From assembly GCF_006345805.1 (NCBI RefSeq), contig NC_043018.1, forward strand, positions 3,038,001-3,102,000: a stretch of DNA of 64,000 bases. The letters run 5' to 3'. A program made the position numbers and the translations under genes. The notes below the pieces were generated by a model. The model was given only the letters and a program-made list of their open reading frames with translations, was not told the DNA's origin and searched no databases. Positions 3,421 to 53,741 of this stretch are shown one piece after another. This DNA comes from Octopus sinensis. Lineage: Eukaryota. The number at the start of each line of letters is the position of its first letter. Positions within the stretch are counted from its first letter, which is position 1.

Positions 3421-6093
3421 GCTGATATTTTTAATAAATCGCGAAACCACTGATGATGTCCAACCGTCGCTTACCTGTAGGCCTCCGGTTTCCAGTGGTG
3501 ATCCCCTGGGATTAGACAATATCGGATTCCATTTACTGATGACTTTACGCATTCATATTTTATTATTTCATTTATTTTTGTAGTAGGAGGCAATACAGTA
3601 ATTTCTATGTTTCGGCTATCTTTGAAAACATTATTGTTGTTGCTTGTGTTGTTGTTGTTACTGATGTTGTTTCTGCTGTTGTTTACATCAAAGTTAGCCC
3701 TGATCGATCGACTATGATAAAATGTTTTCCAAATATCAAAATAGCATCTGGTTTTCATTGACAAAGCTATAAAACATGTCTCTAGATCATGACACAACCG
3801 AATTCGTTGATATAATATATAAATAACAAACAACACATCACTTCAATACGATGCCTATACATGCTGGGAGAGAGTTAATAAAACTGTAGTAAATCCCTTC
3901 GTAAATGTCCTTTTAAAACTCGAACTACTAAAAACTGTTCTTTATGGGAAAGTATGACATATAAAATACACATTGATTAATAAACGTTAGATTGCCATGC
4001 CATAGAACAATTCAGCTGCAAATTCACTCACAGATATACATCATAGGCCGCATCTATTAGAACTACATTTAACACATATATCCTATATTACAAGAAACAA
4101 ATGCACCCTTGTTAGAGAATGGATAAATATGCCATTAAAAACTCATAAAATGCAACGCAACATTTATCACATATAACCACAGACTCATTGGTAGGACATA
4201 TTATCAAAATACCGGAATGAAACAGCACAAAACTAGCAAACCATGTAAAGTATTTCAGACAACTAATGTAATCTACAAATTTCAGTGTAAACATGAAAGT
4301 TGTAAGTTTCCTGGTTCGATCATGCATTTACAACAAGGAGCGGCCGTAACTCATTATAATACAGTACAGGAAATAAAATTAGACAGGAATACATTAGATG
4401 ACAGCAGTACGATTACGATTTTACATAGAATTCCGCAAAAACGAAAGGAATAACAATGCAAGTTTTACCAATACCAAATTAGAAACCAAAAATCAATACT
4501 CACAGAGAACAGGCGGAAAATAAACCACGAAATCTACTCGACCTAAACTGTTGTATATAATTATTCAATCCGGCGTTGACGATTTTATAAGTTATTATAA
4601 AATTCATTGCCATGATACTTTGCAAGCTACAGTAAAGTGCTTATATAAGCTACAATTACTTTTTTTTTCGTTCCGATAATAAGGACAAAAATATCAGGGA
4701 ACCTAATGGTCTAATCGCTTTATGAAGTCTATTACTCTAAAATGAATATAAAGAGAGAATTAGGGGAAATGAAAAAAAATGTCTTCAATAAACTGATTCA
4801 TATCAAACACAGCCAGGTTTTTTATACAACTTGTTTGCGATTCAGTCAAACACAGACGTAGATACATACTTACATACATACATACAAAGTAAATCTATAA
4901 GTGGTACAGTGAAGAATTGTAAGACTTTCGCAAAATTCTTCATTTGAGATTCTTCTGTGAACAGATGCTCATACTTGTGTGTTTACATCGACAGGACAAC
5001 CATCACTTCAACTCAACTACATATTTAAATACACCGGGAACTCATTTAACTCCAATAGTGTTGTTGCTTCGTTAGAGACTCGCTCGTCTTTCTCTCAAAA
5101 AGAGTTTAAAACTCAAAGAAAAAGATGCATGCATAAGTACACTCATACACACACGCACACACACACATACCGACGCACATAGCCTCCACCCAACACACAG
5201 ACATATATAGACACGCATCCAAGTTAAGCAGGTTGTGATTTTTACAACGCCTTACACCGCAGTAAACATCTAGAGAAGCCATCACGTGTAGACAATAAAT
5301 GCTAAAATCTACTGATGATATCAACTGAGGATATTTCATCAGCATCAGTGAATAGCATCGTTGCATCTTGTAATTTCACCGTGTTTCGGATCATCAGTAG
5401 TAGACAAACTTGGAAAATCTGTTAAACGGATATAGTATAGCAGTGGCTAAACAGTCGCGGATGTTACAAAGACCTGGCTGGTTGTGTATAAATTAGTTAG
5501 CGACAGAGGCAGCTTTTTTTAACGATAATATATATGCTATTTAGTATCTGTCATCTTCACGTTGTTTGATTGCCTCTGTGGTTTTGGTTTCATTTCTTTT
5601 CCTTGATTTTTATCCATGTAAAGTTCGATGATATTTTCTAATTAACGCGTAATATTCTATGATTGATTTACGAGCTATTTTCTGTTTGCCGAATGGTTTA
5701 ATTTTCTCTCTGAACAGCAGGATATGATTTTATGCTTGTCGTTGTTTCTTTGTTTAGGCCTAATATTCTAATCTGTATTAAACAGATAAATGATGTTTTA
5801 GCGTGACCAGCATGTCTGTGTGTGCGTGCGTGCGTGTGTACATGGTTTTGTGTGTGTGTGTATGTGTGTGTGAGGGTGCACCATCTATTGTTAACCTACT
5901 CACAAGATTGTGAAATTCAGGTTTCGATTCTCGGCCCGGAAATGAATGGACAGCGCAAACCTTTGATCACTATTTACAAATCATTTGTACAAGATCTTCA
6001 TCAAGAAATTACAGAGCATATACGTATACTAACACATACGTATACAAGGGTGTGTGTGTGCGTATGTGTGTGTGTCTGTATGTGTGTGTGTGT

Positions 6094-8257: not shown

Positions 8258-8562
8258 GTATATATAGATATATATGCATGTATGTATGTATGTAGTATGT
8301 ATGTATGTATGAAGTCTATATTTCATTCTGGCAAAGCATTCTTTACAATTTGAAAACAATTCAGCATTCAGCAGTTAAGTCTGTGTGGTTAAGTGGCTCG
8401 CTTAGTAACCACGTGGTTTTAAATGTAATCCAACTGTATTATTCCTTTGGGCACGCGTGCTCTGGGCAGACTGATTTAGCGGTGCCCAGGGCTCCGCTAA
8501 ATCCACAAGTTTATTGTTATTCTTTCCCTGTTGTTTTCTTTATATACTCTCTCCTTGTATTC

Positions 8563-8598
8563 CTTTCTGTTGAAGAACGGAGGTTCGAAACTTAAAAG
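8563..8598 (+). ncRNA. Minimal hammerhead-ribozyme-like motif (variant core) within a ~130-bp copy (about 8520-8650) of a dispersed repeat
   Basis: CTTT-CTGTTGA-A-GAAC-GGAG-GTTC-GAAA-CT-TA-AAAG: stem I CTTT/AAAG, stem II GAAC/GTTC, GAAA and UH elements. Homologous to the copies at 42389 and 46506. Confidence 0.45.
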
Positions 8599-9019
8599 AC
8601 TTTCTCACCTCCTGTTGTTTGTACACTTGTCTTCGTCTTTTGATTTTCTATCCAATGAATATGTACCAACATCAACCACAAAGAAATTTGAACTCTTGGG
8701 GGGAGGGGGGATATGTAACATGATCCAAAACCTCACAGTCAAAACAGATCATTTCTCTCTTAGTCCACAACTAACTAATCCCCCCAATTTCTTAGTAACG
8801 TGTTTGAAGTTAGGTAGAAAGAAAGACGTTTTGAGGGAAATGGGTTAGCAGAATCCATTGGCACCAGCACTTGGATGTTATAAACATCAAAAACATGAGA
8901 ACTCAGGGATTATGAAATGCTCGATTAAATTACACACGAGGCATTTGCTTACATGTTAATTATCGCCTTCTAAATAGAGATTTAGAGTTTTGCATGGCAG
9001 CCAAAACCACGTGTCAGCT

Positions 9020-31683: not shown

Positions 31684-32235
31684 TTGTGAAAGTGAAAATC
31701 TTGTGCAGAAAGAGTGCAAGCGTAGACACGACAAGGTAAACCAAAACCTCCACTGGCTACTATGCCTTAAGTATGGATATGAAGTTACGGGTGCTTGCTA
31801 ACAACATACACCGAAAACGGTAATGGACGAAAAGGGGAAGGTAAAAATCCTGTGGGACTTTGATTTCCAGACAGACAAAGTATTAGAGCACCGAAGGCAG
31901 GATATAGTAACCTTTAAAAGGGAAAGACAAGAGTACCTAATAATTGACGTGAAGTGCCAGGAGATCAACATATCATCATGAAAGGAAGAGAAAAAGTTGA
32001 TAAATATGGCGACCAGAGAATTGAGATCGCTAAGATGTGGCAGCTACGAGAGTCAAACATAAAGGTTATCCCCTCCTCATCGGGGCATGGGGTTCAATAC
32101 AACACAATCTGAAAAATAGAAAAGGCATCTGAAAACTTTAGAAATACCCTACAATCAAATGTCGGTATAACTTAGATTTGCACGTATATTACGTAGTGTC
32201 TCTCTGAGGTCCTTGTTGTGACTTGACAAACAGTA
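31684..32235 (+). mobile_element. R4/Dong-clade non-LTR 3' fragment (second family), degenerate
   Basis: KRRHDKVNQNLHWLLCLKYG..HTPKTV..KILWDFDFQTDKVLEHRRQDIV..LIIDV..EKVDKYGDQRIEIAKMW, the typical RHD/PD..D restriction-like endonuclease region; starts right after (TAA)n. Confidence 0.85.
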
Positions 32236-32236
32236 C

Positions 32237-32691
32237 ATACTCTGGGATATGCCAATACACACAGATAGAGAAATTAAGGCCAACAGACCAGATATAGTTG
32301 TCAGAGATCACCAAGAAAAATGCTTTCTAATTGATGTATCAATACCGGCAGATGACAACGTGTCTCTAAAAGAAATGGAGAAACTCTCAAAATACAAAGA
32401 CCTGGAAATAGAGGTAACCAGAATGTGGAATCTAAAAACAGAAACAATTCCTATTATAGTAGGTGCATTAGGCATGATAAAAAAATATTCAGACAAATGC
32501 ATAACAAAAACACCAGGACTTACAAACACATATAACATACAGAAAATTGCACTACTAGGCACTGCACACATTCTACGCAGAACACTTTTCAATACAGTAA
32601 CCATCAGAGCATCACAAAAATCACAGCACATACCCAAGCACACAGAGCTGCGCTCGGTAGTGAAGTGAAAGCACGTTAAAAAATAAAACTA

Positions 32692-32852: not shown

Positions 32853-33339
32853 CATTGGTTTTGTCTTGGTATAAAGATGGGCTACAGCAAATATTCTGCT
32901 CATACCACAGATTTGCTTGTCAGTTGTTTTGACCTTAACCAGTTGAGCATGTCCCTTAGTGGCTGACGATATGTGCATCTCTGATCACGAGCAGAAGTAG
33001 TGGGGGGGTATCATCATAGCCATGTGTTGAGAGGGATTCTTTGGGATTTGAATAGTTCACCTCTGGAAACATGGGTGGTTCTTTCAACATCCTTAAACAA
33101 CCCTTATTCAGGGACCGTTTGAGCAGGATGGGCTACTCAAAATGAAGAAAATTCTAACTGGGTCCCACCTGCAAGGTCATGTGCTGTTTATCTTGATATG
33201 AGTTCACCATGTCGCGCACATATGGTTGTGATGCATGTGCCTAGTATACCCTTATCAGACGGGCAGTCATGATGGGTATATTGGGCTTCGTATATTTTAC
33301 CCCAGTGTCATTTTGAAGGCATGAACTGCGCTCTCACTC
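32853..33339 (+). mobile_element. Non-coding ~490-bp (TAA)n-associated retroposon (family D)
   Basis: Flanked by TAA arrays; the same 3' end CTCTCACTC-(AAT)n as the copy at 33383 and a near-identical end in the copy at 40852. Confidence 0.8.
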
Positions 33340-33382
<43 letters not shown>

Positions 33383-33485
33383 GTACCTGGTGTACCCTTA
33401 TCAGACTGGTAGTCATGATGGGTATATTGGGCTTCGTATATTTTACCCCAGTGTCACTTTGATGGCATGAACTGCTCTCTCACTC
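33383..33485 (+). mobile_element. 5'-truncated family-D copy
   Basis: Near-identical to the last ~100 bp of 32853-33339; between TAA arrays. Confidence 0.85.
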
Positions 33486-40798: not shown

Positions 40799-40850
<52 letters not shown>

Positions 40851-40851
40851 T

Positions 40852-41283
40852 GAGTGAGGGAGAGAACAATGCCATCAAAGTGACACTTGGATAAAATATA
40901 CGAATTCCAGTATACCCTTCATCACTACCCGTCTGATAAGGGTACACCAGGCACATGCATCACAACCATATGTGCGCGACATGGTGATTTCATATCAAAA
41001 TAAACAGTACATGAGCTTGCAGGCGGGGCCCAGTTTGAAATTTCTTTCGGTCGAGTAACCCATCCTGCTCAAATGGTTTTTGAACAAGGGTTGTTTAAGG
41101 ATGTTGAACCAAACATCCATGCTTCTAGATGTGAATTATTCAAACCCCAAAGGATTTCTCTCAACACATAGCTATGATGTTCACCCACTAATTCTGTGCG
41201 TGATCACTAAGTTGCATGCTAAACTGGTTAAGGTCAAACAACTGACAAGCAAATCTGTGATAAGGAACAGAATATTTACTCGT
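40852..41283 (-). mobile_element. Family-D (TAA-associated) retroposon copy
   Basis: Reverse complement of ~32885-33339; (TTA)n at 40799-40848 and short TTA repeats at the other end. Confidence 0.85.
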
Positions 41284-41355: not shown

Positions 41356-41455
41356 NNNNNNNNNNNNNNNNNNNNNNNNNNNNNNNNNNNNNNNNNNNNN
41401 NNNNNNNNNNNNNNNNNNNNNNNNNNNNNNNNNNNNNNNNNNNNNNNNNNNNNNN
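41356..41455. other. Assembly gap (100 N)
   Basis: Run of N. Confidence 1.
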
Positions 41456-41750: not shown

Positions 41751-42293
41751 TCATACGATATGAAAATTTATTTTATGCTAATGCACTCTGGAGTTTTGGA
41801 ATTTTTTATACTTATTATTAACAAATTTTATATCACTGTTTAAAATTCGAAACCTAAAAATTTGAAATGCTTTTATAACTACGAATATCTGATAAAGGAA
41901 ACGTGATTACCGAAGGTGAAAAGATGTATCTACATTTTCGCACATTCCCTGAAACGGCCGTAAGATGTTTTCCGTTTAATTTCATTTATTCGAGGACTTT
42001 CTTTTAAATCAGTGTCATTCTAGCCGCTCGTGATTTTAAAATTTAATTGTATATCTGTATGTGTGTATGCACGCTGTCATCCAAAATTTATTTCAAATGG
42101 GATTGTATGAAGAAATATATATGTCACAATAAATATATATGTATATATATAGTTCAATTCGGTTTGAATCGTGTTAGTTTTGACCGGAGTAACTTGTTAC
42201 CTGAATCTGTCCTCCTTCATTGAATTTATATATATATATTATATATATATATAATATATATATATATATAATATATATATATATATATTATAT

Positions 42294-42510
42294 AACGGGA
42301 AGGTTTACGAAAATAACAAAAGACGAAGGCCGGTGGAGTACAGACAAAAAATGTATTAGTATGGGCTCAGGAGTAGAAATAGAACAAGTCTTTTATGTTT
42401 CGCGCCTACGCTCTTCAACAGAAAGATACACAGAAAAAAACAAGGAGAGAAACAAGGAGAGAAAACAGGGAGAGAAAAATGCGTGTAGGAGCTAACGATC
42501 TATCATGTCG
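42294..42510 (-). mobile_element. ~200-bp dispersed repeat with hammerhead-like motif (42389-42426), embedded in (TA)n; possibly derived from a Penelope-like element
   Basis: Homologous to 46417-46607 and 8520-8650; minus strand TCTTT-CTGTTGA-A-GAGC-GTAG-GCGC-GAAA-CA-TA-AAAGA; TA runs on both sides. Confidence 0.65.
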
Positions 42511-42527
42511 ATATATATATATATATA

Positions 42528-42589
<62 letters not shown>

Positions 42590-42651
42590 ATTATGATGGA
42601 TTAAATTGTCGTGAACGAGAAATGAGGGTTCAATTAGATAAAGCGTTATAA

Positions 42652-43250
42652 TCATGTTCTATGCACATGGATGTGTCTGTTCAGGCCTGCTGATACCTTG
42701 CAGACCTTTTTCAAATGGAACAAGTTGAGGACTGAGTTTGCTTGAGTGCTTGTGGATCATTTACTGTGGGTTTTCTTGAGTGGGTGCAATGGTTGCTTTG
42801 TTTAGTGCCACAAATCCACAGTGACAGGTAAGGTTCCCATTCAGAAGGGCAAGGTTTTCCCAGCGTGTCTTCATGCTTGCATAAAGTTGGTCTCGATGTT
42901 GCAGTCAACTTTACTCAGATCTTTGAACTGAGGAGAATTAAGACTGGCTCCAAGTCCTGCGTTCTGATGCTTTGTTTTCTCGGGAAGGAAACGGAATAGT
43001 GCATCACTTCAGACTGTCTTTTAAGTTGTCTTTGAAGTAATATCATCGCCAAGCAGCGTTTAGGCATATCGGAACTTTAGATTACTTTGAACGTGTTTGT
43101 GACATTTGACCTGCTAAAGGCAAATTCATTGCAATTACCGTTACCATGGAGAATTACGTTCTTTCAAATGGTAAACAGAAGGATGTAAAATCATCATATC
43201 TTTCCAGTACCGCCACCCATCAGATTCCCAGACATCGAGCGTTCTAGCTT
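42652..43250 (-). mobile_element. RTE-clade LINE 3' relic
   Basis: DMPKRCL, YFKDNLKDSLK*CTI, ASERRTW, LTCHCGF and a terminal TCSI*..KVCKVSAGLNRHIHVHRT* C2H2-like finger. Confidence 0.7.
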
Positions 43251-43511
43251 CCTAAGCGTTATCAATGCGAAATACTGAAGAGATAAGTTTGAGAAGAAGC
43301 TATAAGCAATGATGTCTCTGAATCTGCCAGGTGGCAGCACTGAACAGATGCTTCTTTTTTTTTTTACACCTTCGCTATCTAAAGAAAATTTTTTCGGCAC
43401 GTTAATTGTAGTGAATTGGCTTTTAAAAGTTCGTATGTGTCACAGGCATATTTTAACTATACATACTATATATTATAGATATATGTATGGATATTATATA
43501 TATATATATAT

Positions 43512-43552
<41 letters not shown>

Positions 43553-44045
43553 GTATGTATGGTAGTATGTATGTATGTATGTATGTAGTATGTATTGTAT
43601 GTATGTATATATGTGTTGTAGAAAGAAGACAAAAACGACTTAAATACATCTTCAGTGATCAATTACAGTAGTGCTTTGCCGAGTCTGATTTCAACGATAT
43701 ATCACGCAAAAGTTCAAAGTGAAAATTTTCGTAATAGTTGCGGTTTTTAAACACAGGATTGACACATCTCCAGACCTGCATCAAAGGTTCACTCTTGCAT
43801 TGTGCGACTGCCAGACTGAGTTATTATCATTTTTGTTTTTTTGCTTATATAGGGAGGAAACAGAAAATAAATAAAATAAATATATAAATAAATAAACAAA
43901 TAACACGAATGAGTGAAGAAGAAAGAGATGCAAAAGAAGAAAAAGAGGACAAGAACATATTGATATCCAAGAAAAAGGAGAAAGGAAGAAGATAAATATG
44001 TAGATACGTATATACATACGTAGATTTATGCAATGTTTATTCATA

Positions 44046-44088
<43 letters not shown>

Positions 44089-44184
44089 TTATATATATAT
44101 ACAATATATATATATTACATGTGTGTGTGTGTGTGTGTGTGCTGCTGGAGGCTAAGCACTAAAAGACCTGTTGGTTATGAATGA

Positions 44185-44777
44185 AGTGCATTTGATTATG
44201 TGTTTCCATCTTCGGCATGAATGCCACCTTCCACCACCACCACCACCACCCCACCACCCACCCTCACCACCACCACCACCCCCCACCACCCACCATCACC
44301 ACAACCCTGCCAATACTCTACTCCTACCTGCACCTACTCCTACTCCTGCACCTACTCCTACTCCTCATTATCATCATCATCTTCATCATCATTCACATCA
44401 TCGTAGCCAACATCGAATATCAATGATTGGTAACGTAATCTAGGCATGACAAATTCTTACTCTTTTTCATTTCTCCTACGCTTCTTCTGTCTCCTCCATG
44501 CAGCCACCTCCTCATCCCACCTCCCGTCCCTCCTCCCCCTCCTCCTCCTCCACCTCTCTTCTCCATCCTCTTAATTATCCCTTTTACCACCATGACCACT
44601 GCCAGCCTCTCCATCGCCATGATCATAGACATCATCGTAAAACATCTCCTCCACCTCCTTCTACTCATCATCTTCATCCTGCTCCCACTCCTACTCCTCA
44701 TTATCATCATCGTCAGCAGCAGCTGTAGCATTTTCATCGTCATCATCATCATCATCACCATCATCATCACCACCACC

Positions 44778-44862
<85 letters not shown>

Positions 44863-45086
44863 CCGTCATCATCATCATCATCATCATCATTATCATCATC
44901 ATCATCATCGCCGTCATCATCGTCAACTCGCAGTCGTCGTCGTCATCCTCATCATTATCATCGTCATCATAACCGTCATCATGTTTATTATCACCTGAAA
45001 AAAGCACGAACCCCTGCTCCACCCTCAACATCGAGATCAATCTATAATACCACCAACTCCACTACCACCACCATCATCACCATCAT

Positions 45087-45127
<41 letters not shown>

Positions 45128-45150
45128 GCGGCAGCAGCAGCAGCAGCAAC
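44185..45150. repeat. Compound (CAC/CAT/CTC/CAG)n low-complexity region
   Basis: Direct reading. Confidence 0.92.
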
Positions 45151-46084
45151 AGTAGCTACAATCGCATCATCGCCCCACACCAACCATCACCTTCCTCGTG
45201 AATACGACAATACGAAAGATGAGGACGACAACAACATGGACGAAAAGGTGAGTTAAGGCTATAGAGAGTGAAACGGAAACGCTGTATTATTCCATTTACC
45301 AAAAATCCAGAAACATGATTGAGCTTTGAAATGTTATTTACCCTGCGGGATCCGATGTTCCATTGTCTTCTGTTTTGTGATGCTGTCAGGTAGCGTATAT
45401 CTGACATGCTTCTCTCCCCTTGCCTCGCTTCCGTTCATCTCCCGCTGTGTTATTATTATCTTCCTATTCCCTCCAAATTTTTTCTGCTGTCTCTCGGCAA
45501 GCTTAATACCAGCCATTTTGGTGTAAAGAGTTCAGTGATGTATATAGGTATTCTACGCATATATTACTGTTCGCGAGTGCAGGCGCCCGTGTGTCTGTGT
45601 GAGTAAATGTTTGAATTTGTGAATGTGTGTATGTATCAGGTGAGTTATGCGTAAGTGTTTCTCTGTTTGTTATAAAATACTGCAATATCTCAATGTGAAT
45701 TCGTGTGTCTGTAAGATAAAGCGAGAGAGGAAGCGTTAACGCGAGAGTGAGCTGTATTAGAAAGAGGTAATGCACACAGTGTAATATATGCGTCTATGTG
45801 TATGTAAGTGCAGATAGAACTTATCTGTGCGTGCTTTCTGCGCGCGCGTGTGGTTACATTTCTGTATAGGTATGTGTTTGTGGATGAAAGATCCCATAGG
45901 CACATGTGTCTATGTATATATAAACATCCTCGCGCGCATGTCTATCTCTCTCTCTCTCTCTCTTTATCTATCAATCTATATATCTATCGATCTATCTATC
46001 TATCAATCTATCTATTTATCAATCTATCTATCTATCTCTCTATCTATCAATCTATCTATCTATCTCTCTATCTGTCTATCTAAA

Positions 46085-46160
<76 letters not shown>

Positions 46161-46416
46161 CATGAACCCACAAGTGTAAACAAGAGAGATAGAGACAGGC
46201 AGAAACAAGGCAAATGTCCCTTGTATGCAAATATACTATGCAAATATATTTTTAAAACACTTTTCATTTATTTTTTCCAAAATTTAATTGTTTTCCATAC
46301 TTACAGTTGAGAAGGTCTCAATGACTGAAACCGGTACTAAAATGTTTTTTTTTTATGATAAAATTATTTTAGCGTTCTCTACCTTGACATTTTTAATTTT
46401 ATATATATATATCTTG

Positions 46417-46607
46417 AAATTTTACGATAAAAATAAAAGACGAAGACAGGTGGTGTACAAAACAAACATATGTATTAGTATAACGCTCAGGAATAGAAAA
46501 AAGTATTTTACGTTTCGAGCCTACGCTCTTCTACAGAAAGGTACACAGAAAAAACATGGAGAGAAACAAGGAGAGAAAAAATGTGTGTAGTGGCTAACGA
46601 TCTATCA
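46417..46607 (-). mobile_element. ~190-bp dispersed repeat with hammerhead-like motif (46506-46539)
   Basis: Minus strand TTT-CTGTAGA-A-GAGC-GTAG-GCTC-GAAA-CG-TA-AAA; homologous to 42294-42510. Confidence 0.65.
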
Positions 46608-47047
46608 TTAAGAGTGTTTAAAGATGTTATGCACAAAGAGAGGGCACCCGACAGGACTTTTTACATGTTACAAAAATATAATTCTAAAGGTACGCCGATA
46701 AAGGCGCAAGAATGTAAGGGATTATTATCTTTAGTTAATCCCATTCTCCAATTTCCTATTAATGTGCAAAGAAATTAATTTATCCCCCGTAGTTCTTCAG
46801 TTGAATCCCTAAAACAACGCATAATTCTGTAGCTTAATAGATGCCGAAAAAGCATCAGCGAGCTGCATCCTTATACATAATGGATGCAAATCAAACCCGT
46901 AAGGGCTTTCACAGAGCCAGCAGTCAACAATGAATTATAAATTGCGTGTAAATCATAAGGGGGAAAAAAGAAACTTAGAATAATTTATTACCAGTGGTTT
47001 GCATGCGTGATAAAAGTCATAAGACAACAGATTTTCATAGATAAGAG

Positions 47048-50847: not shown

Positions 50848-53741
50848 CAGGGTTGGGCAAACTACGGCCCACCATAGGTTTTCATGCGGCCCGCCGAGAG
50901 CTTTTATGAATCGCAACTTCTATGCAGACACTTCGTAACTGTTTCAGTTGTACGGTAATTCACAATAGTTTGCATTTTATTTCAGTTCACTGTTTCGCGC
51001 CTTCACAAAATTGTCCGCTGTTTGTTTGTTTCAGCTACTGTGAAGCGATGAAAAATTTCGAGAAATATTCCCATGACATCATAATAAAACACATTTCCGG
51101 GTGAAGATATCTTTTCTGTGTTTTCTCGTCAGACCCTACAAACACAAAAATTAATAGAACAATGAAACAAGTATTGTGGCAATACAACGAGTCAATCGAT
51201 ATGCTTGAAACATTCAAATAAATAAATCACGTGATAGATGGTGAAGAGGGCATGATAGACGATGCGTTTCGTTTCAATGAAGAAGCCGGCCAGGTTAATA
51301 AAAGGGCTTGAACCAGCTTTTTCTGGACACAGAGCTGTGGTTGGTTATCATTCACTCTATCGATTATTTGACACGAGTGTTTCAAACTAGCTTTTGTTGT
51401 CTGATAAAATTTACCCAAAATGAGTTGTTCGAAGCTATCTAAAAAGCGAAAACTTGAAGATGAATGTCGTGTTTTTAATGAAAATTGGACTGAAAAGTAT
51501 TTCTTACCGACGTTGGAGTGAAAGCTGCATGTTTGATTTGTTCTGAAACAGTTGCTGTGTTCAAGGAATATAATTTGAAACGCCACTTTCAAACGAAGAG
51601 CACGCCAATTTTGGACACAATTTATCAAAACAAGAACTGCAAAAGAAAGCAAATGATCTGACAAAACGTTTGAAACAACAGCAAAATGTGTTTGATAAAA
51701 CTTCCTCTTTACAAAAGAACGCGACAAAGGCAAGTTTTATATTGGCCAACAAAATTGCAAAGCAAAACAAGTCATTCGCAGAAGCAGAATTTATCAAAGA
51801 TTGTATGGTGATGCTGTCAGCGTTGTGTGTCTGAAGTTAAGTCAAAAGTAGAAGCCATTTCCCTGTCACGAAGAACTATTGTTCGTCGCATTGATGCAAT
51901 TGCCGGTGAATATTCATGAACAGCTGTTAACAGCCAGTGGTCGATTTCAGTGGTTTTCTATTGCTTTAGATTAGAGTACTGATATTCAGGATACTGCTCA
52001 GTTACTCATTTACATCAGAGGAATTGACGAAAACTTTGAAATTACAGAGAAATTGTTATCTATGGAGTCTCTCAAGGACACTACTACTGGAAAAGATTTG
52101 TTCAACAGTGTCATTAACACTTCAATCAGGTCTAGATTAACCCTAAATAAACTGGCCAGAATTACAACCGATGGAGCTCCTTCACTCACCGGTAAACATT
52201 CCGGCCTTGTGAAGTTGTTGAATGACAAAATCAAAGAAGGTTTCCACTACACAGTGTGTTGTCTTTTCACTGCATCATACATCAAGAAATCCTTTGTAAG
52301 TCATCTTTAAAGCTCAAACATGTCATCGAACCTGTGGTGCGTGCAGTGAATTTAATAAGATCACGGGGATTGAAACACAGGCAATTCCGAAGTTTCTTGG
52401 AGGATGTGGAGGCTGATTTTACTGATGTGCTGTACTACACAAATGTCCGCTGGTTAAGCATTGGAAAAGTTCTTAAGAGAGTATGGGACCTCAAAGCAGA
52501 GATTCTTATGTTTCTCAAAATGCAAGACATCTCCTGTGACTTTTTAAACGAAATGGAGAGTGACGAATGGGTTTGTGATTTTGCATTTGCTGTGGACATA
52601 ATGCAGAAGCTGAATGAACTTAACACAAAACTGCAAGGCAAAGGTATATTTGCTCATGAATTGTACCTGGAAGTGAAAGGTTTTCAATGGAAGCTTGGAC
52701 TTTTTGCCAAGCAGCTGAATGAGCAAACATTTATTCACTTCCCTCTGCTGAAAACACAGTCTGTTACACAAGAATCATCGGACAAGTACAGTTCCCAGTT
52801 GATGGCTTTACAAAAGGAATTCATTAGAAGATTTGCTGATTTCAAGGCAGTTGAAGGCCTGTTCGATTTGCTTAACTCACCTCTTGCCTGTGACATTGAA
52901 ACAACTACCGAGGAACTGCAGATAGAACTGATTCATTTGCAAGCCGACAATTCTTTAAATATGATGTTTGAAAGTAAACCACTGTTCGAGTTTTATGCTT
53001 CTCTACATTCAAAAATGTTTCAAAATCTAAAAAAAAGTGCAAGAAACGTGTTTTTGTTGTTTGCATCAACTTACATATGTGAGCAGACTTTCTCCATCAT
53101 GAAAATTAACAAGGGGAAGAATCGATCACTTCTCACAGACTCAAATCTTCAGTCAGTGTTAAGAATCAGCACAAGCAATTTGACACCTAATTTTGACAAA
53201 CTGGTAAATGACAGTAGTCAGCTGCATCATTCTCATTGACATTGTTAATTACAGAGCCGCTTTGTTTTTCAAATAAATGCTTCAGGTGACGTTTCTAATT
53301 TCAGATATCAATTCATATTAACAAACTGTTAATTCTCTTTAAAATCTTTTATTTTGGGTATCCTAGAATTTAAGTATAATATTCATCATGGTTGTCCATA
53401 ATATTAAGAGGTGGTTGTCCACAAGTAGTGCAGATTTTACTAGGAAAATTCCGTTCCTGGCAATTTGTAAGCAATAACAGGCTGACCAAAATAACCGAGG
53501 TTCCTGTAATAATTTCAACTATAGGAGCAAATAACCGAAAAACATGAACCCGATACTCTAAAAAATAAATCAAATCACTTAAACCAGGAATATTTCACAA
53601 AATTTCCTTTCAAACGATTGTGTGTTTATAGGTCTATAACCGCCTTTAAAAATATTTTCACTTGATTTTTATAAATGGGGCCCGCCAAGGTTCCAAAGTC
53701 GCACTGTGCGGTCCGCGATCAAAAAAGTTCGCCCACCCCTG
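50848..53741 (+). mobile_element. Full-length hAT DNA transposon (Charlie/Buster/SPIN group), inactive
   Basis: TIRs CAGGGTTGGGCAAACT and AGTTCGCCCACCCCTG (14/16 match); perfect 8-bp TSD TTCTAGAC at 50840-50847 and 53742-53749; subterminal CGGCCC-like motifs; 2894 bp. Confidence 0.97.
51420..53239 (+). pseudogene. hAT transposase pseudogene (GTF2IRD2/SPIN-like)
   Basis: MSCSKLSKKRK..RVFNENW, BED finger CLIC..NLKRHF, FSIALD*STD (stop in DESTD), ITTDGAPS, HCIIHQE, VRWLS, STYICEQTFS. Frameshifts in the 5' half; the last 327 codons are open. Confidence 0.95.

What the first reader, a model, noticed from the sequence alone, without database searches (positions are those of the whole stretch)
42294..46607. 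Dispersed ~200-bp repeat carrying a variant minimal hammerhead ribozyme (CUGUNGA core) with stem-II covariation
Seen: three copies (8563-8598 +, 42389-42426 -, 46506-46539 -) share the layout stem I (CUUU/AAAG; only UUU/AAA in the third copy) - CUG(U)NGA - A - 4-bp stem II with tetraloop - GAAA - 2 nt - UA - stem I'. Stem II is GAGC/GCUC in one copy and GAAC/GUUC in another, a double compensatory change; the 42389 copy has one stem-II mismatch. The 46506 copy has GAAACGUA, with a self-complementary ACGU where stem III would be. The 42294 copy lies inside (TA)n. Established: Penelope-like elements carry minimal type-I hammerheads with palindromic stem III that cleave as dimers, and non-autonomous hammerhead retroelements (retrozymes) exist. 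Inference: this is a non-coding, PLE-derived ribozyme-bearing mobile element whose core has U at the normally invariant A6 in all three copies, so it may be a family-level variant rather than decay.
Basis: partly seen in the sequence, partly recalled or inferred. Interest (0 to 1): 0.75.

Follow-up and report, generated by a model that had tools for sequence, protein, structure and literature searches.

The report
Altered hammerhead in Penelope retrotransposon ends
The three repeats are cut-short tail ends of an abundant protein-coding jumping gene (a Penelope-like element) whose self-cutting RNA motif carries the same change at a normally fixed core letter in about 99% of copies, which likely weakens its cutting; cutting itself is untested.

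Summary
The three copies are real, but they are not a separate non-coding element. They are 5'-truncated ends (pseudo-LTRs) of an autonomous Penelope-like element encoding reverse transcriptase, a CX4CxxC linker and a GIY-YIG endonuclease. All 40 RT-selected loci carry the motif downstream, and 13 of 40 have pLTR-ORF-pLTR. U6 is lineage-fixed: 12,543 exact matches against 128 with A6. Across eight subfamilies only N7 varies in the 27-nt motif, against 43 of 108 flank columns, so the motif is conserved. The 'compensatory' stem II change is chance decay: 8 copies against about 5 expected. Covariation appears only between families. A sister lineage has fixed another U-turn change, U4C (6,281 matches, against 2,681 with U4). 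No genomic sign of cleavage: 0 of 7 core-less copies start at the cut site. Best reading: a weakened but still constrained hammerhead, copied mostly uncut. I found no natural A6U in print, but two key papers were unavailable. Verdict: new variant of a known kind; interest 0.45.

The parts
42294..42510 (-). 5'-truncated pLTR (3' end) of a Neptune/Nematis-type Penelope-like element, resembling subfamily S3; starts at the common truncation hotspot
   Evidence: best other copy 93%; about 81% to both pLTRs of full element L180
42389..42426 (-). Minimal type I hammerhead layout with A6U: C3 42421, U6 42418, N17 42394 (predicted cut 42394/42393); one stem II mismatch and a broken palindrome, both copy-specific decay
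42226..42293 (.). (TA)n run at the element's 3' end (target microsatellite; left edge approximate)
42511..42586 (.). (TA)n run at the element's 5' end (right edge approximate)
46413..46608 (-). Second 5'-truncated pLTR copy, subfamily S2 (N7 = A), ending in a short TA run
   Evidence: (best other copies 96%)
46506..46539 (-). Hammerhead layout with A6U, intact stem II and ACGU palindrome: C3 46536, U6 46533, N17 46509; stem I cut to 3 bp
8494..8645 (+). Old, internally deleted pLTR copy resembling subfamily S5 (right edge approximate)
   Evidence: (75-93% over partial matches)
8563..8598 (+). Hammerhead layout with A6U: C3 8567, U6 8570, N17 8594; its stem II double transition is a chance private change

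Best explanation
The repeat is the truncated 3' end (pseudo-LTR) of an autonomous endonuclease-bearing Penelope-like retrotransposon, and its hammerhead carries a lineage-fixed A6U change that likely leaves it a weak, rarely cutting ribozyme still kept under selection. Shown: the ORF link, the tandem pLTR layout, TA-microsatellite insertion, fixation of U6, and conservation of the motif across subfamilies. Inferred: the element's own RT and GIY-YIG protein nicks (TA)n and copies the RNA from a fixed start about 95 nt downstream of the predicted cut site, reading through the uncut hammerhead. Copying from the 3' pLTR would give long, variably truncated copies. Copying from the 5' pLTR to the RNA's 5' end would give the 200-bp copies. 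A cut in the 3' pLTR would part the RT start from the ORF, so weaker cutting would cost little or even help. Residual cutting would need a dimer through ACGU or help from the protein.
For: Copies share a fixed 3' end and variable 5' ends. In 30 consecutive copies, 7 run 226 nt or more past the hotspot, 11 start within 6 nt of it and 12 are shorter. 40 of 40 RT-selected loci have the motif downstream (39 with U6, 1 disrupted), and 13 of 40 have a 5' pLTR joined to the 5' UTR. Pfam RVT_1 E 1.3e-7 (above cut-off); GIY-YIG E 0.003-0.008 (below cut-off). U6 12,543 against A6 128. In 600 kb of unselected DNA, 10 of 10 copies found by flank alone that keep the core have U6. Across 8 subfamily consensuses, 1 of 27 motif columns varies (N7, all four bases) against 43 of 108 flank columns, Fisher p 1e-4. 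N17 is A, U or C and never G in 201 assigned copies. Between families, 6 of 8 stem pairs change on both sides. Natural A6C gives low but detectable cleavage (PMC3088659 section 8). Single mutants of the CUGA turn are low in activity (PMC9901934 passage). Cleavage-dead hammerheads still support insertion in vitro, and that hammerhead is protein-assisted (PMC11167929). 0 of 7 core-less copies begin at the cut site.
Against: No cleavage data. 'Weakly active' cannot be told from 'dead but constrained for another reason': loop II is also invariant, which catalysis alone does not need. There is no covariation within the U6 lineage. Many copies were fetched by core similarity, subfamilies were assigned by hand-picked motifs, 31 of 232 copies were left unassigned, and 2 core columns were unresolved in one group and counted as invariant. 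Seven core-less copies is a small sample. Folding gives no clear direction: U6 lowers the open-junction probability in 4 of 7 subfamilies and raises it in 3. The 5' hotspot is equally compatible with self-copying 200-bp units. The RT start and promoter positions are inferred from another PLE clade.
Confidence: 0.55

Rival explanations
1. The motif no longer cuts at all. It is kept as a sequence-specific RNA handle for the PLE protein, or as part of the pLTR promoter in DNA.
For: Loop II and the extra A are as fixed as the core. Both young lineages carry U-turn changes, and the young U4C family also has a poor stem I. There is no cut-site footprint (0 of 7). Hammerhead cleavage is dispensable in vitro, and Naiads without canonical hammerheads spread well.
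Against: The two positions that vary, N7 and N17, are those the hammerhead leaves free, and G17 was not seen in 201 copies. My rough hand estimate of this by chance is about 0.06. Stems I and II and the palindrome remain intact.
Confidence: 0.22
2. A6U is a tolerated natural core variant that cuts efficiently in the cell as a dimer or with the PLE protein, freeing the element's RNA from upstream transcripts.
For: Strong conservation over subfamilies whose ORF pieces differ by up to about 25% in amino acids. Minimal PLE hammerheads work as dimers or with protein. The A6C variant is active with Mn2+ (review passage).
Against: All single mutants of the CUGA turn were low in a full scan. Tens of thousands of copies were made from uncut RNA, and no copy starts at the cut site (0 of 7).
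Confidence: 0.14
3. One reading: the 200-bp unit is an independent non-coding, retrozyme-like or SINE-like element that copies itself with borrowed PLE enzymes.
For: 11 of 30 consecutive copies start within 6 nt of one point. A few tandem or head-to-head pairs exist (L014, L062, L104).
Against: The short copies share their subfamily-diagnostic sequence with ORF-bearing copies. 19 of 30 start elsewhere. No long tandem arrays or canonical hammerhead were seen.
Confidence: 0.07
4. Neutral relic: U6 killed the ribozyme in one master copy, and the apparent conservation is recent common descent.
For: No covariation within the lineage. Individual copies decay in the core at a similar order as in flanks (2.6% against 3.8%).
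Against: 1 of 27 against 43 of 108 variable columns between subfamilies. Old, flank-selected copies keep the same motif.
Confidence: 0.02

Closest known systems
Minimal type I hammerheads in pLTRs of metazoan Penelope-like elements (Cervera and de la Pena 2014, PMC4209133; read main text parts 1-2 of 4 and supplement parts 1-2 of 3)
   Same: Located in both pLTRs; extra nucleotide between 9 and 10.1; G10.1-C11.1; short stem I; palindromic C15.2-G16.2 with no loop III; H17; mostly single motifs from truncated copies.
   Different: All 56 motifs in their Fig. S3 have A6 (their descriptor required the core); the only core variant they report is U3-A8. Here A6U is fixed in about 99% of exact matches.
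Neptune/Nematis-type endonuclease-bearing PLEs (Craig et al. 2021, PMC8557442; passages)
   Same: Single ORF with RT, CX2-5CxxC linker and C-terminal GIY-YIG with CCHH; pLTR tandems and inverted copies; TA-microsatellite targets.
   Different: That paper says canonical hammerheads are universal in PLEs other than Naiad and most Chlamys; here the two youngest lineages carry non-canonical cores (A6U, U4C). Clade not placed on a reference tree.
Natural hammerhead core variants A6C (phage Bcep176) and U4C (viroid) (Perreault et al. 2011, PMC3088659; section 8, passages, supplement legends)
   Same: Single change in the CUGA turn of an otherwise complete core.
   Different: Those are rare single ribozymes with measured low activity; here the base is U, in a minimal dimer-type motif, in tens of thousands of copies, and untested.
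Metazoan non-LTR retrozymes (PMC7229834, passages; bioRxiv 10.64898/2026.07.22.740005, part 1 of 5)
   Same: Short hammerhead-bearing repeats related to PLE pLTRs.
   Different: Retrozymes are ORF-less tandem repeats with canonical hammerheads and circular RNAs; these copies are dispersed ends of a coding element.

Membership tests
Endonuclease-bearing Penelope-like element (Neptune/Nematis type) | [quoted passage not shown] | tested here: met
   Open frames of 1,009 and 963 aa with RVT_1 E about 1e-7 and GIY-YIG E 0.003-0.008 (below Pfam cut-off), in that order
Endonuclease-bearing Penelope-like element (Neptune/Nematis type) | CX2-5CxxC linker between RT and endonuclease, and CCHH motif in the endonuclease | tested here: met
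   Read directly in the translations of L180 and L182; definition from PMC8557442 passages
Endonuclease-bearing Penelope-like element (Neptune/Nematis type) | Partial tandem giving pLTR-ORF-pLTR; 5'-truncated and inverted copies | tested here: met
   13 of 40 RT-selected loci have a 5' pLTR joined to the 5' UTR, 88-100% alike to the 3' pLTR; inverted pairs in L104 and L195
Endonuclease-bearing Penelope-like element (Neptune/Nematis type) | Insertion into (TA)n | tested here: met
   TA or related microsatellite follows the 3' end in most copies printed; seen by eye, not counted
Endonuclease-bearing Penelope-like element (Neptune/Nematis type) | RT groups with reference Neptune rather than Nematis elements | not tested
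   No reference PLE set was available; the trees hold only copies from this genome
Minimal type I PLE hammerhead | Core C3 U4 G5 A6 N7 G8 A9 | tested here: not met
   U at position 6 in 12,543 of 12,671 exact matches
Minimal type I PLE hammerhead | Extra base after A9, G10.1-C11.1, GAAA, palindromic 15.2-16.2, U16.1, H17 | tested here: met
   All 8 subfamily consensuses; N17 is A, U or C in 201 of 201 assigned copies
Minimal type I PLE hammerhead | Stems I and II supported by covariation | tested here: inconclusive
   Yes between families (6 of 8 pairs; 12 hand-picked rows); none within the U6 lineage
Minimal type I PLE hammerhead | Self-cleavage 3' of H17 as a dimer or with protein | not testable with these tools
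   Bench assay needed; only contigs were available for sequencing runs
Metazoan non-LTR retrozyme | No protein-coding capacity | tested here: not met
   The same sequence is the end of RT plus GIY-YIG elements
Metazoan non-LTR retrozyme | Tandem monomers, each with a canonical hammerhead | tested here: not met
   Mostly single dispersed copies with a minimal A6U motif; only a few pairs among the fetched loci
Metazoan non-LTR retrozyme | Abundant circular RNA | not testable with these tools
   No raw RNA reads available

The most novel reading that the evidence does not exclude
Penelope-like elements are selected to turn their own hammerheads down. The two most abundant young lineages found here each fixed a different U-turn change (A6U and U4C) while keeping the rest of the fold, and A6U is a natural core variant that cuts only when the element's protein or a dimer partner remodels it: a protein-gated ribozyme switch.
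Probability: 0.25. Interest if true: 0.72.

Novelty: new variant of a known kind. Interest (0 to 1): 0.45.

Why it matters
Why Penelope-like elements carry hammerheads is an open question: cutting is weak in vitro and was dispensable in the one reconstituted system. This genome offers a natural experiment, with related lineages carrying canonical, A6U and U4C cores, and young ORF-bearing copies of the two variant lineages. Comparing their cleavage, and their dependence on it, tests whether catalysis or structure is what is kept. It also shows that searches requiring CUGANGA miss roughly 50,000 copies here (range 28,000-95,000 from 12 copies in 600 kb). The element class itself is well known.

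Tried and rejected
Rfam found no hammerhead match, neither among the 150 best of 188 listed hits in the window nor in a young pLTR (0 hits). The repeat finder was swamped by microsatellites. A fuzzy-match script timed out. The young ORF has no PDB sequence match, and the protein atlas was unavailable for it. Sequencing runs: no RNA holder listed. Four runs were laid as contigs only and cannot show ends or expression. They list a variant at N7 but none at U6 at 10% or more, under four organism labels. I tested the idea that U6 locks the monomer in a rod by pairing with A15.1: true in 4 of 7 subfamilies, reversed in 3, and the canonical sister also folds closed, so I did not use it. The idea that the 128 A6 copies are an ancestral subfamily was rejected: the 15 fetched fall in several U6 subfamilies and carry all four N7 bases. 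CUGU hits L259 and L265 are stem II of a canonical family, not a second U6 core. L292-L294 share a CUGUUGA motif but have G17 and no clear stem I; left open. The window holds no PLE ORF piece. Print searches: A6U; CUGUNGA words; none of the listings showed a natural A6U hammerhead. Lunse et al. 2017 (about 150,000 PLE variants, number recalled) and Arkhipova et al. 2017 were not held and could describe it. Perreault's Figs 5 and S7 are pictures; a text search of its supplements found nothing. Per-mutant values of PMC9901934 were not seen. PMC11014351, PMC13282606 and PMC6765202 (passages) added only background.

Full report
Observation. The three copies are present as described, with C3 at 8567(+), 42421(-) and 46536(-). 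The window lies in a 2.72 Gb, microsatellite-rich animal genome. An earlier AI note calls it an octopus; I did not test that. DNA searches with the three copies gave 2,612, 1,004 and 1,579 candidates. An exact 30-letter pattern with U at position 6 matched 12,543 times, the same pattern with A 128 times, and the backwards control 0 times. The 15 A6 copies fetched fall into several U6 subfamilies, so they look like scattered back-mutations. In 600 kb of unselected DNA a profile of the downstream flank alone found 12 distinct copies (0 in reversed DNA). The 10 that keep the core all have U6. That density gives about 54,000 copies, range 28,000-95,000.

The covariation claim fails within the family. 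Single transitions at that stem II pair number 516, and double A-U changes number 8, against about 5.3 expected if the two single changes are equally common (P 0.17). Of all 18 double changes, 9 are mismatches and 1 is a wobble, and the 8 are spread over all N7 types. Real covariation exists between families in this genome: stem II reads GAGC/GCUC, GAAC/GUUC or GGAC/GUCC, and 6 of 8 stem pairs change on both sides (12 hand-picked rows). The families that supply those changes have the canonical core.

What it is. Copies share a fixed 3' end, mostly followed by TA or related repeats, and have variable 5' ends. Walking 5' leads through a repetitive 3' UTR into a GIY-YIG endonuclease, a CX4CxxC linker and a Penelope-type RT. 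An RT search gave 15,076 candidates with open frames up to 1,009 aa. I fetched 40 of the 150 scored loci, choosing long frames. All 40 carry the motif downstream of the endonuclease (39 with U6, 1 disrupted). Sixteen have an upstream copy: 13 are true 5' pLTRs joined to the 5' UTR, and 3 are separate insertions. Pfam gives RVT_1 above cut-off and GIY-YIG below it. These features define Neptune/Nematis-type elements (PMC8557442 passages); I did not place the RT on a reference tree. The window copies are thus 5'-truncated pLTRs of an autonomous element, the commonest state of PLE hammerheads (PMC4209133).

Is the motif under selection? I sorted 201 of 232 copies into 8 subfamilies by hand-picked motifs. 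In their consensuses only N7 varies among the 27 motif positions, taking all four bases, against 43 of 108 ungapped flank columns (Fisher p 1e-4; two columns unresolved in one group were counted as invariant). N17 is A, U or C, never G. ORF pieces of these subfamilies are 73-100% identical in amino acids to the youngest. Many copies were fetched by core similarity, which favours this result, but flank-selected copies agree. N7 and N17 are the free positions of a hammerhead core (established knowledge), which hints that the fold is still what is kept. Loop II is also invariant, which hints at sequence-specific binding.

A sister lineage. A related lineage, about 66-70% identical in protein, has a homologous pLTR with the same stem II and a 3-nt loop. 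Its U4 form has 2,681 exact matches (98 of the first 100 with A6, none with U6). The 11 of 20 fetched ORF-bearing copies in which a 5' motif was found all read C3-C4-G5-A6, a U4C change, and that form has 6,281 matches. U4C creates a CpG, so part of the 2,681 may be decay. No ORF-bearing copy with a clearly linked canonical motif was found. The trees separate the U6 and sister ORFs (support 0.956 for RT, with one old canonical-core piece and the outgroup on the U6 side; 1.0 for the endonuclease). With canonical cores in older families, A6U and U4C are best read as two independent derived changes (inference). An earlier AI note reports a third abundant repeat with a C3G/G8C swap (not tested here).

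How it likely works. Published data predict low activity. Natural A6C cuts at under 0.1 per minute (PMC3088659 section 8), and single mutants of the CUGA turn were low in a full scan (PMC9901934 passage); A6U values were not seen. In the one reconstituted PLE, the hammerhead needed protein, cleavage-dead mutants still inserted, and RT started inside the RNA (PMC11167929). Every core-bearing copy here was made from RNA uncut at that site. Of 7 copies lacking the core, none starts at the cut site. Among 30 consecutive copies, 11 start within 6 nt of one point about 75 nt upstream of C3, 7 run much further and 12 are shorter. I infer that the hotspot is the RNA's 5' end, reached when RT starts at the end of the 5' pLTR; self-copying short units are an alternative. 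I commit to a weakened, conditional ribozyme kept by selection (0.55), against dead but constrained (0.22), efficiently active (0.14), independent retrozyme (0.07) and neutral relic (0.02). Folding did not decide this.

Novelty. All 56 PLE motifs in the Cervera supplement have A6, though their search required it. Ten print searches showed no natural A6U, but the Lunse 2017 and Arkhipova 2017 papers were not held and picture supplements could not be read. No earlier finding of this scan matched the sequence. Verdict: a known element class and motif, with an apparently undescribed lineage-fixed core variant and a parallel variant in its sister lineage. New variant of a known kind; interest 0.45.

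Noticed in passing
L313:1215, L314:1269 in the fetched orientation (G000:C1:74.95 Mb, C19:26.80 Mb): Young sister PLE lineage with 1,008-aa open frames, a long CA-rich 3' UTR and a U4C hammerhead core with weak stem I; 6,281 exact matches.
   Followed up: partly
L251-L279 (445 matches, control 5): Many older minimal-hammerhead families with canonical cores and covarying stem II.
   Followed up: partly
L292-L294 (G000:C2:206.81 Mb, C4:17.90 Mb, C4:160.52 Mb): An unrelated old repeat with a CUGUUGA...GAAACGU motif, G at position 17 and no clear stem I; possibly a second decayed or variant hammerhead family.
   Followed up: partly
L313 about 670-1070, fetched orientation: A U6-lineage copy inserted into the 5' pLTR region of a sister-lineage element.
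   Followed up: no
window 5370-5400 (-): Isolated CUGAUGA...GAAA motif with a 3-bp hairpin closed by U.U and no clear stem I or III; possibly chance.
   Followed up: no
window 32996-33385 and 40806-41195: 390-nt inverted pair, 84% complementary, 7.4 kb apart.
   Followed up: no
window 52226-53239 (+): 337-aa open frame that reads like a hAT-type transposase C-terminus (label recalled, not tested).
   Followed up: no
window 32222-32668 (-): 148-aa frame that reads like the restriction-like endonuclease end of a LINE (label recalled, not tested).
   Followed up: no
window 8375-8490 (+): Degenerate SINE-like sequence directly upstream of the oldest copy (label recalled).
   Followed up: no
window 41356-41455: Run of 100 N, an assembly gap about 0.8 kb from the 42 kb copy.
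   Followed up: no
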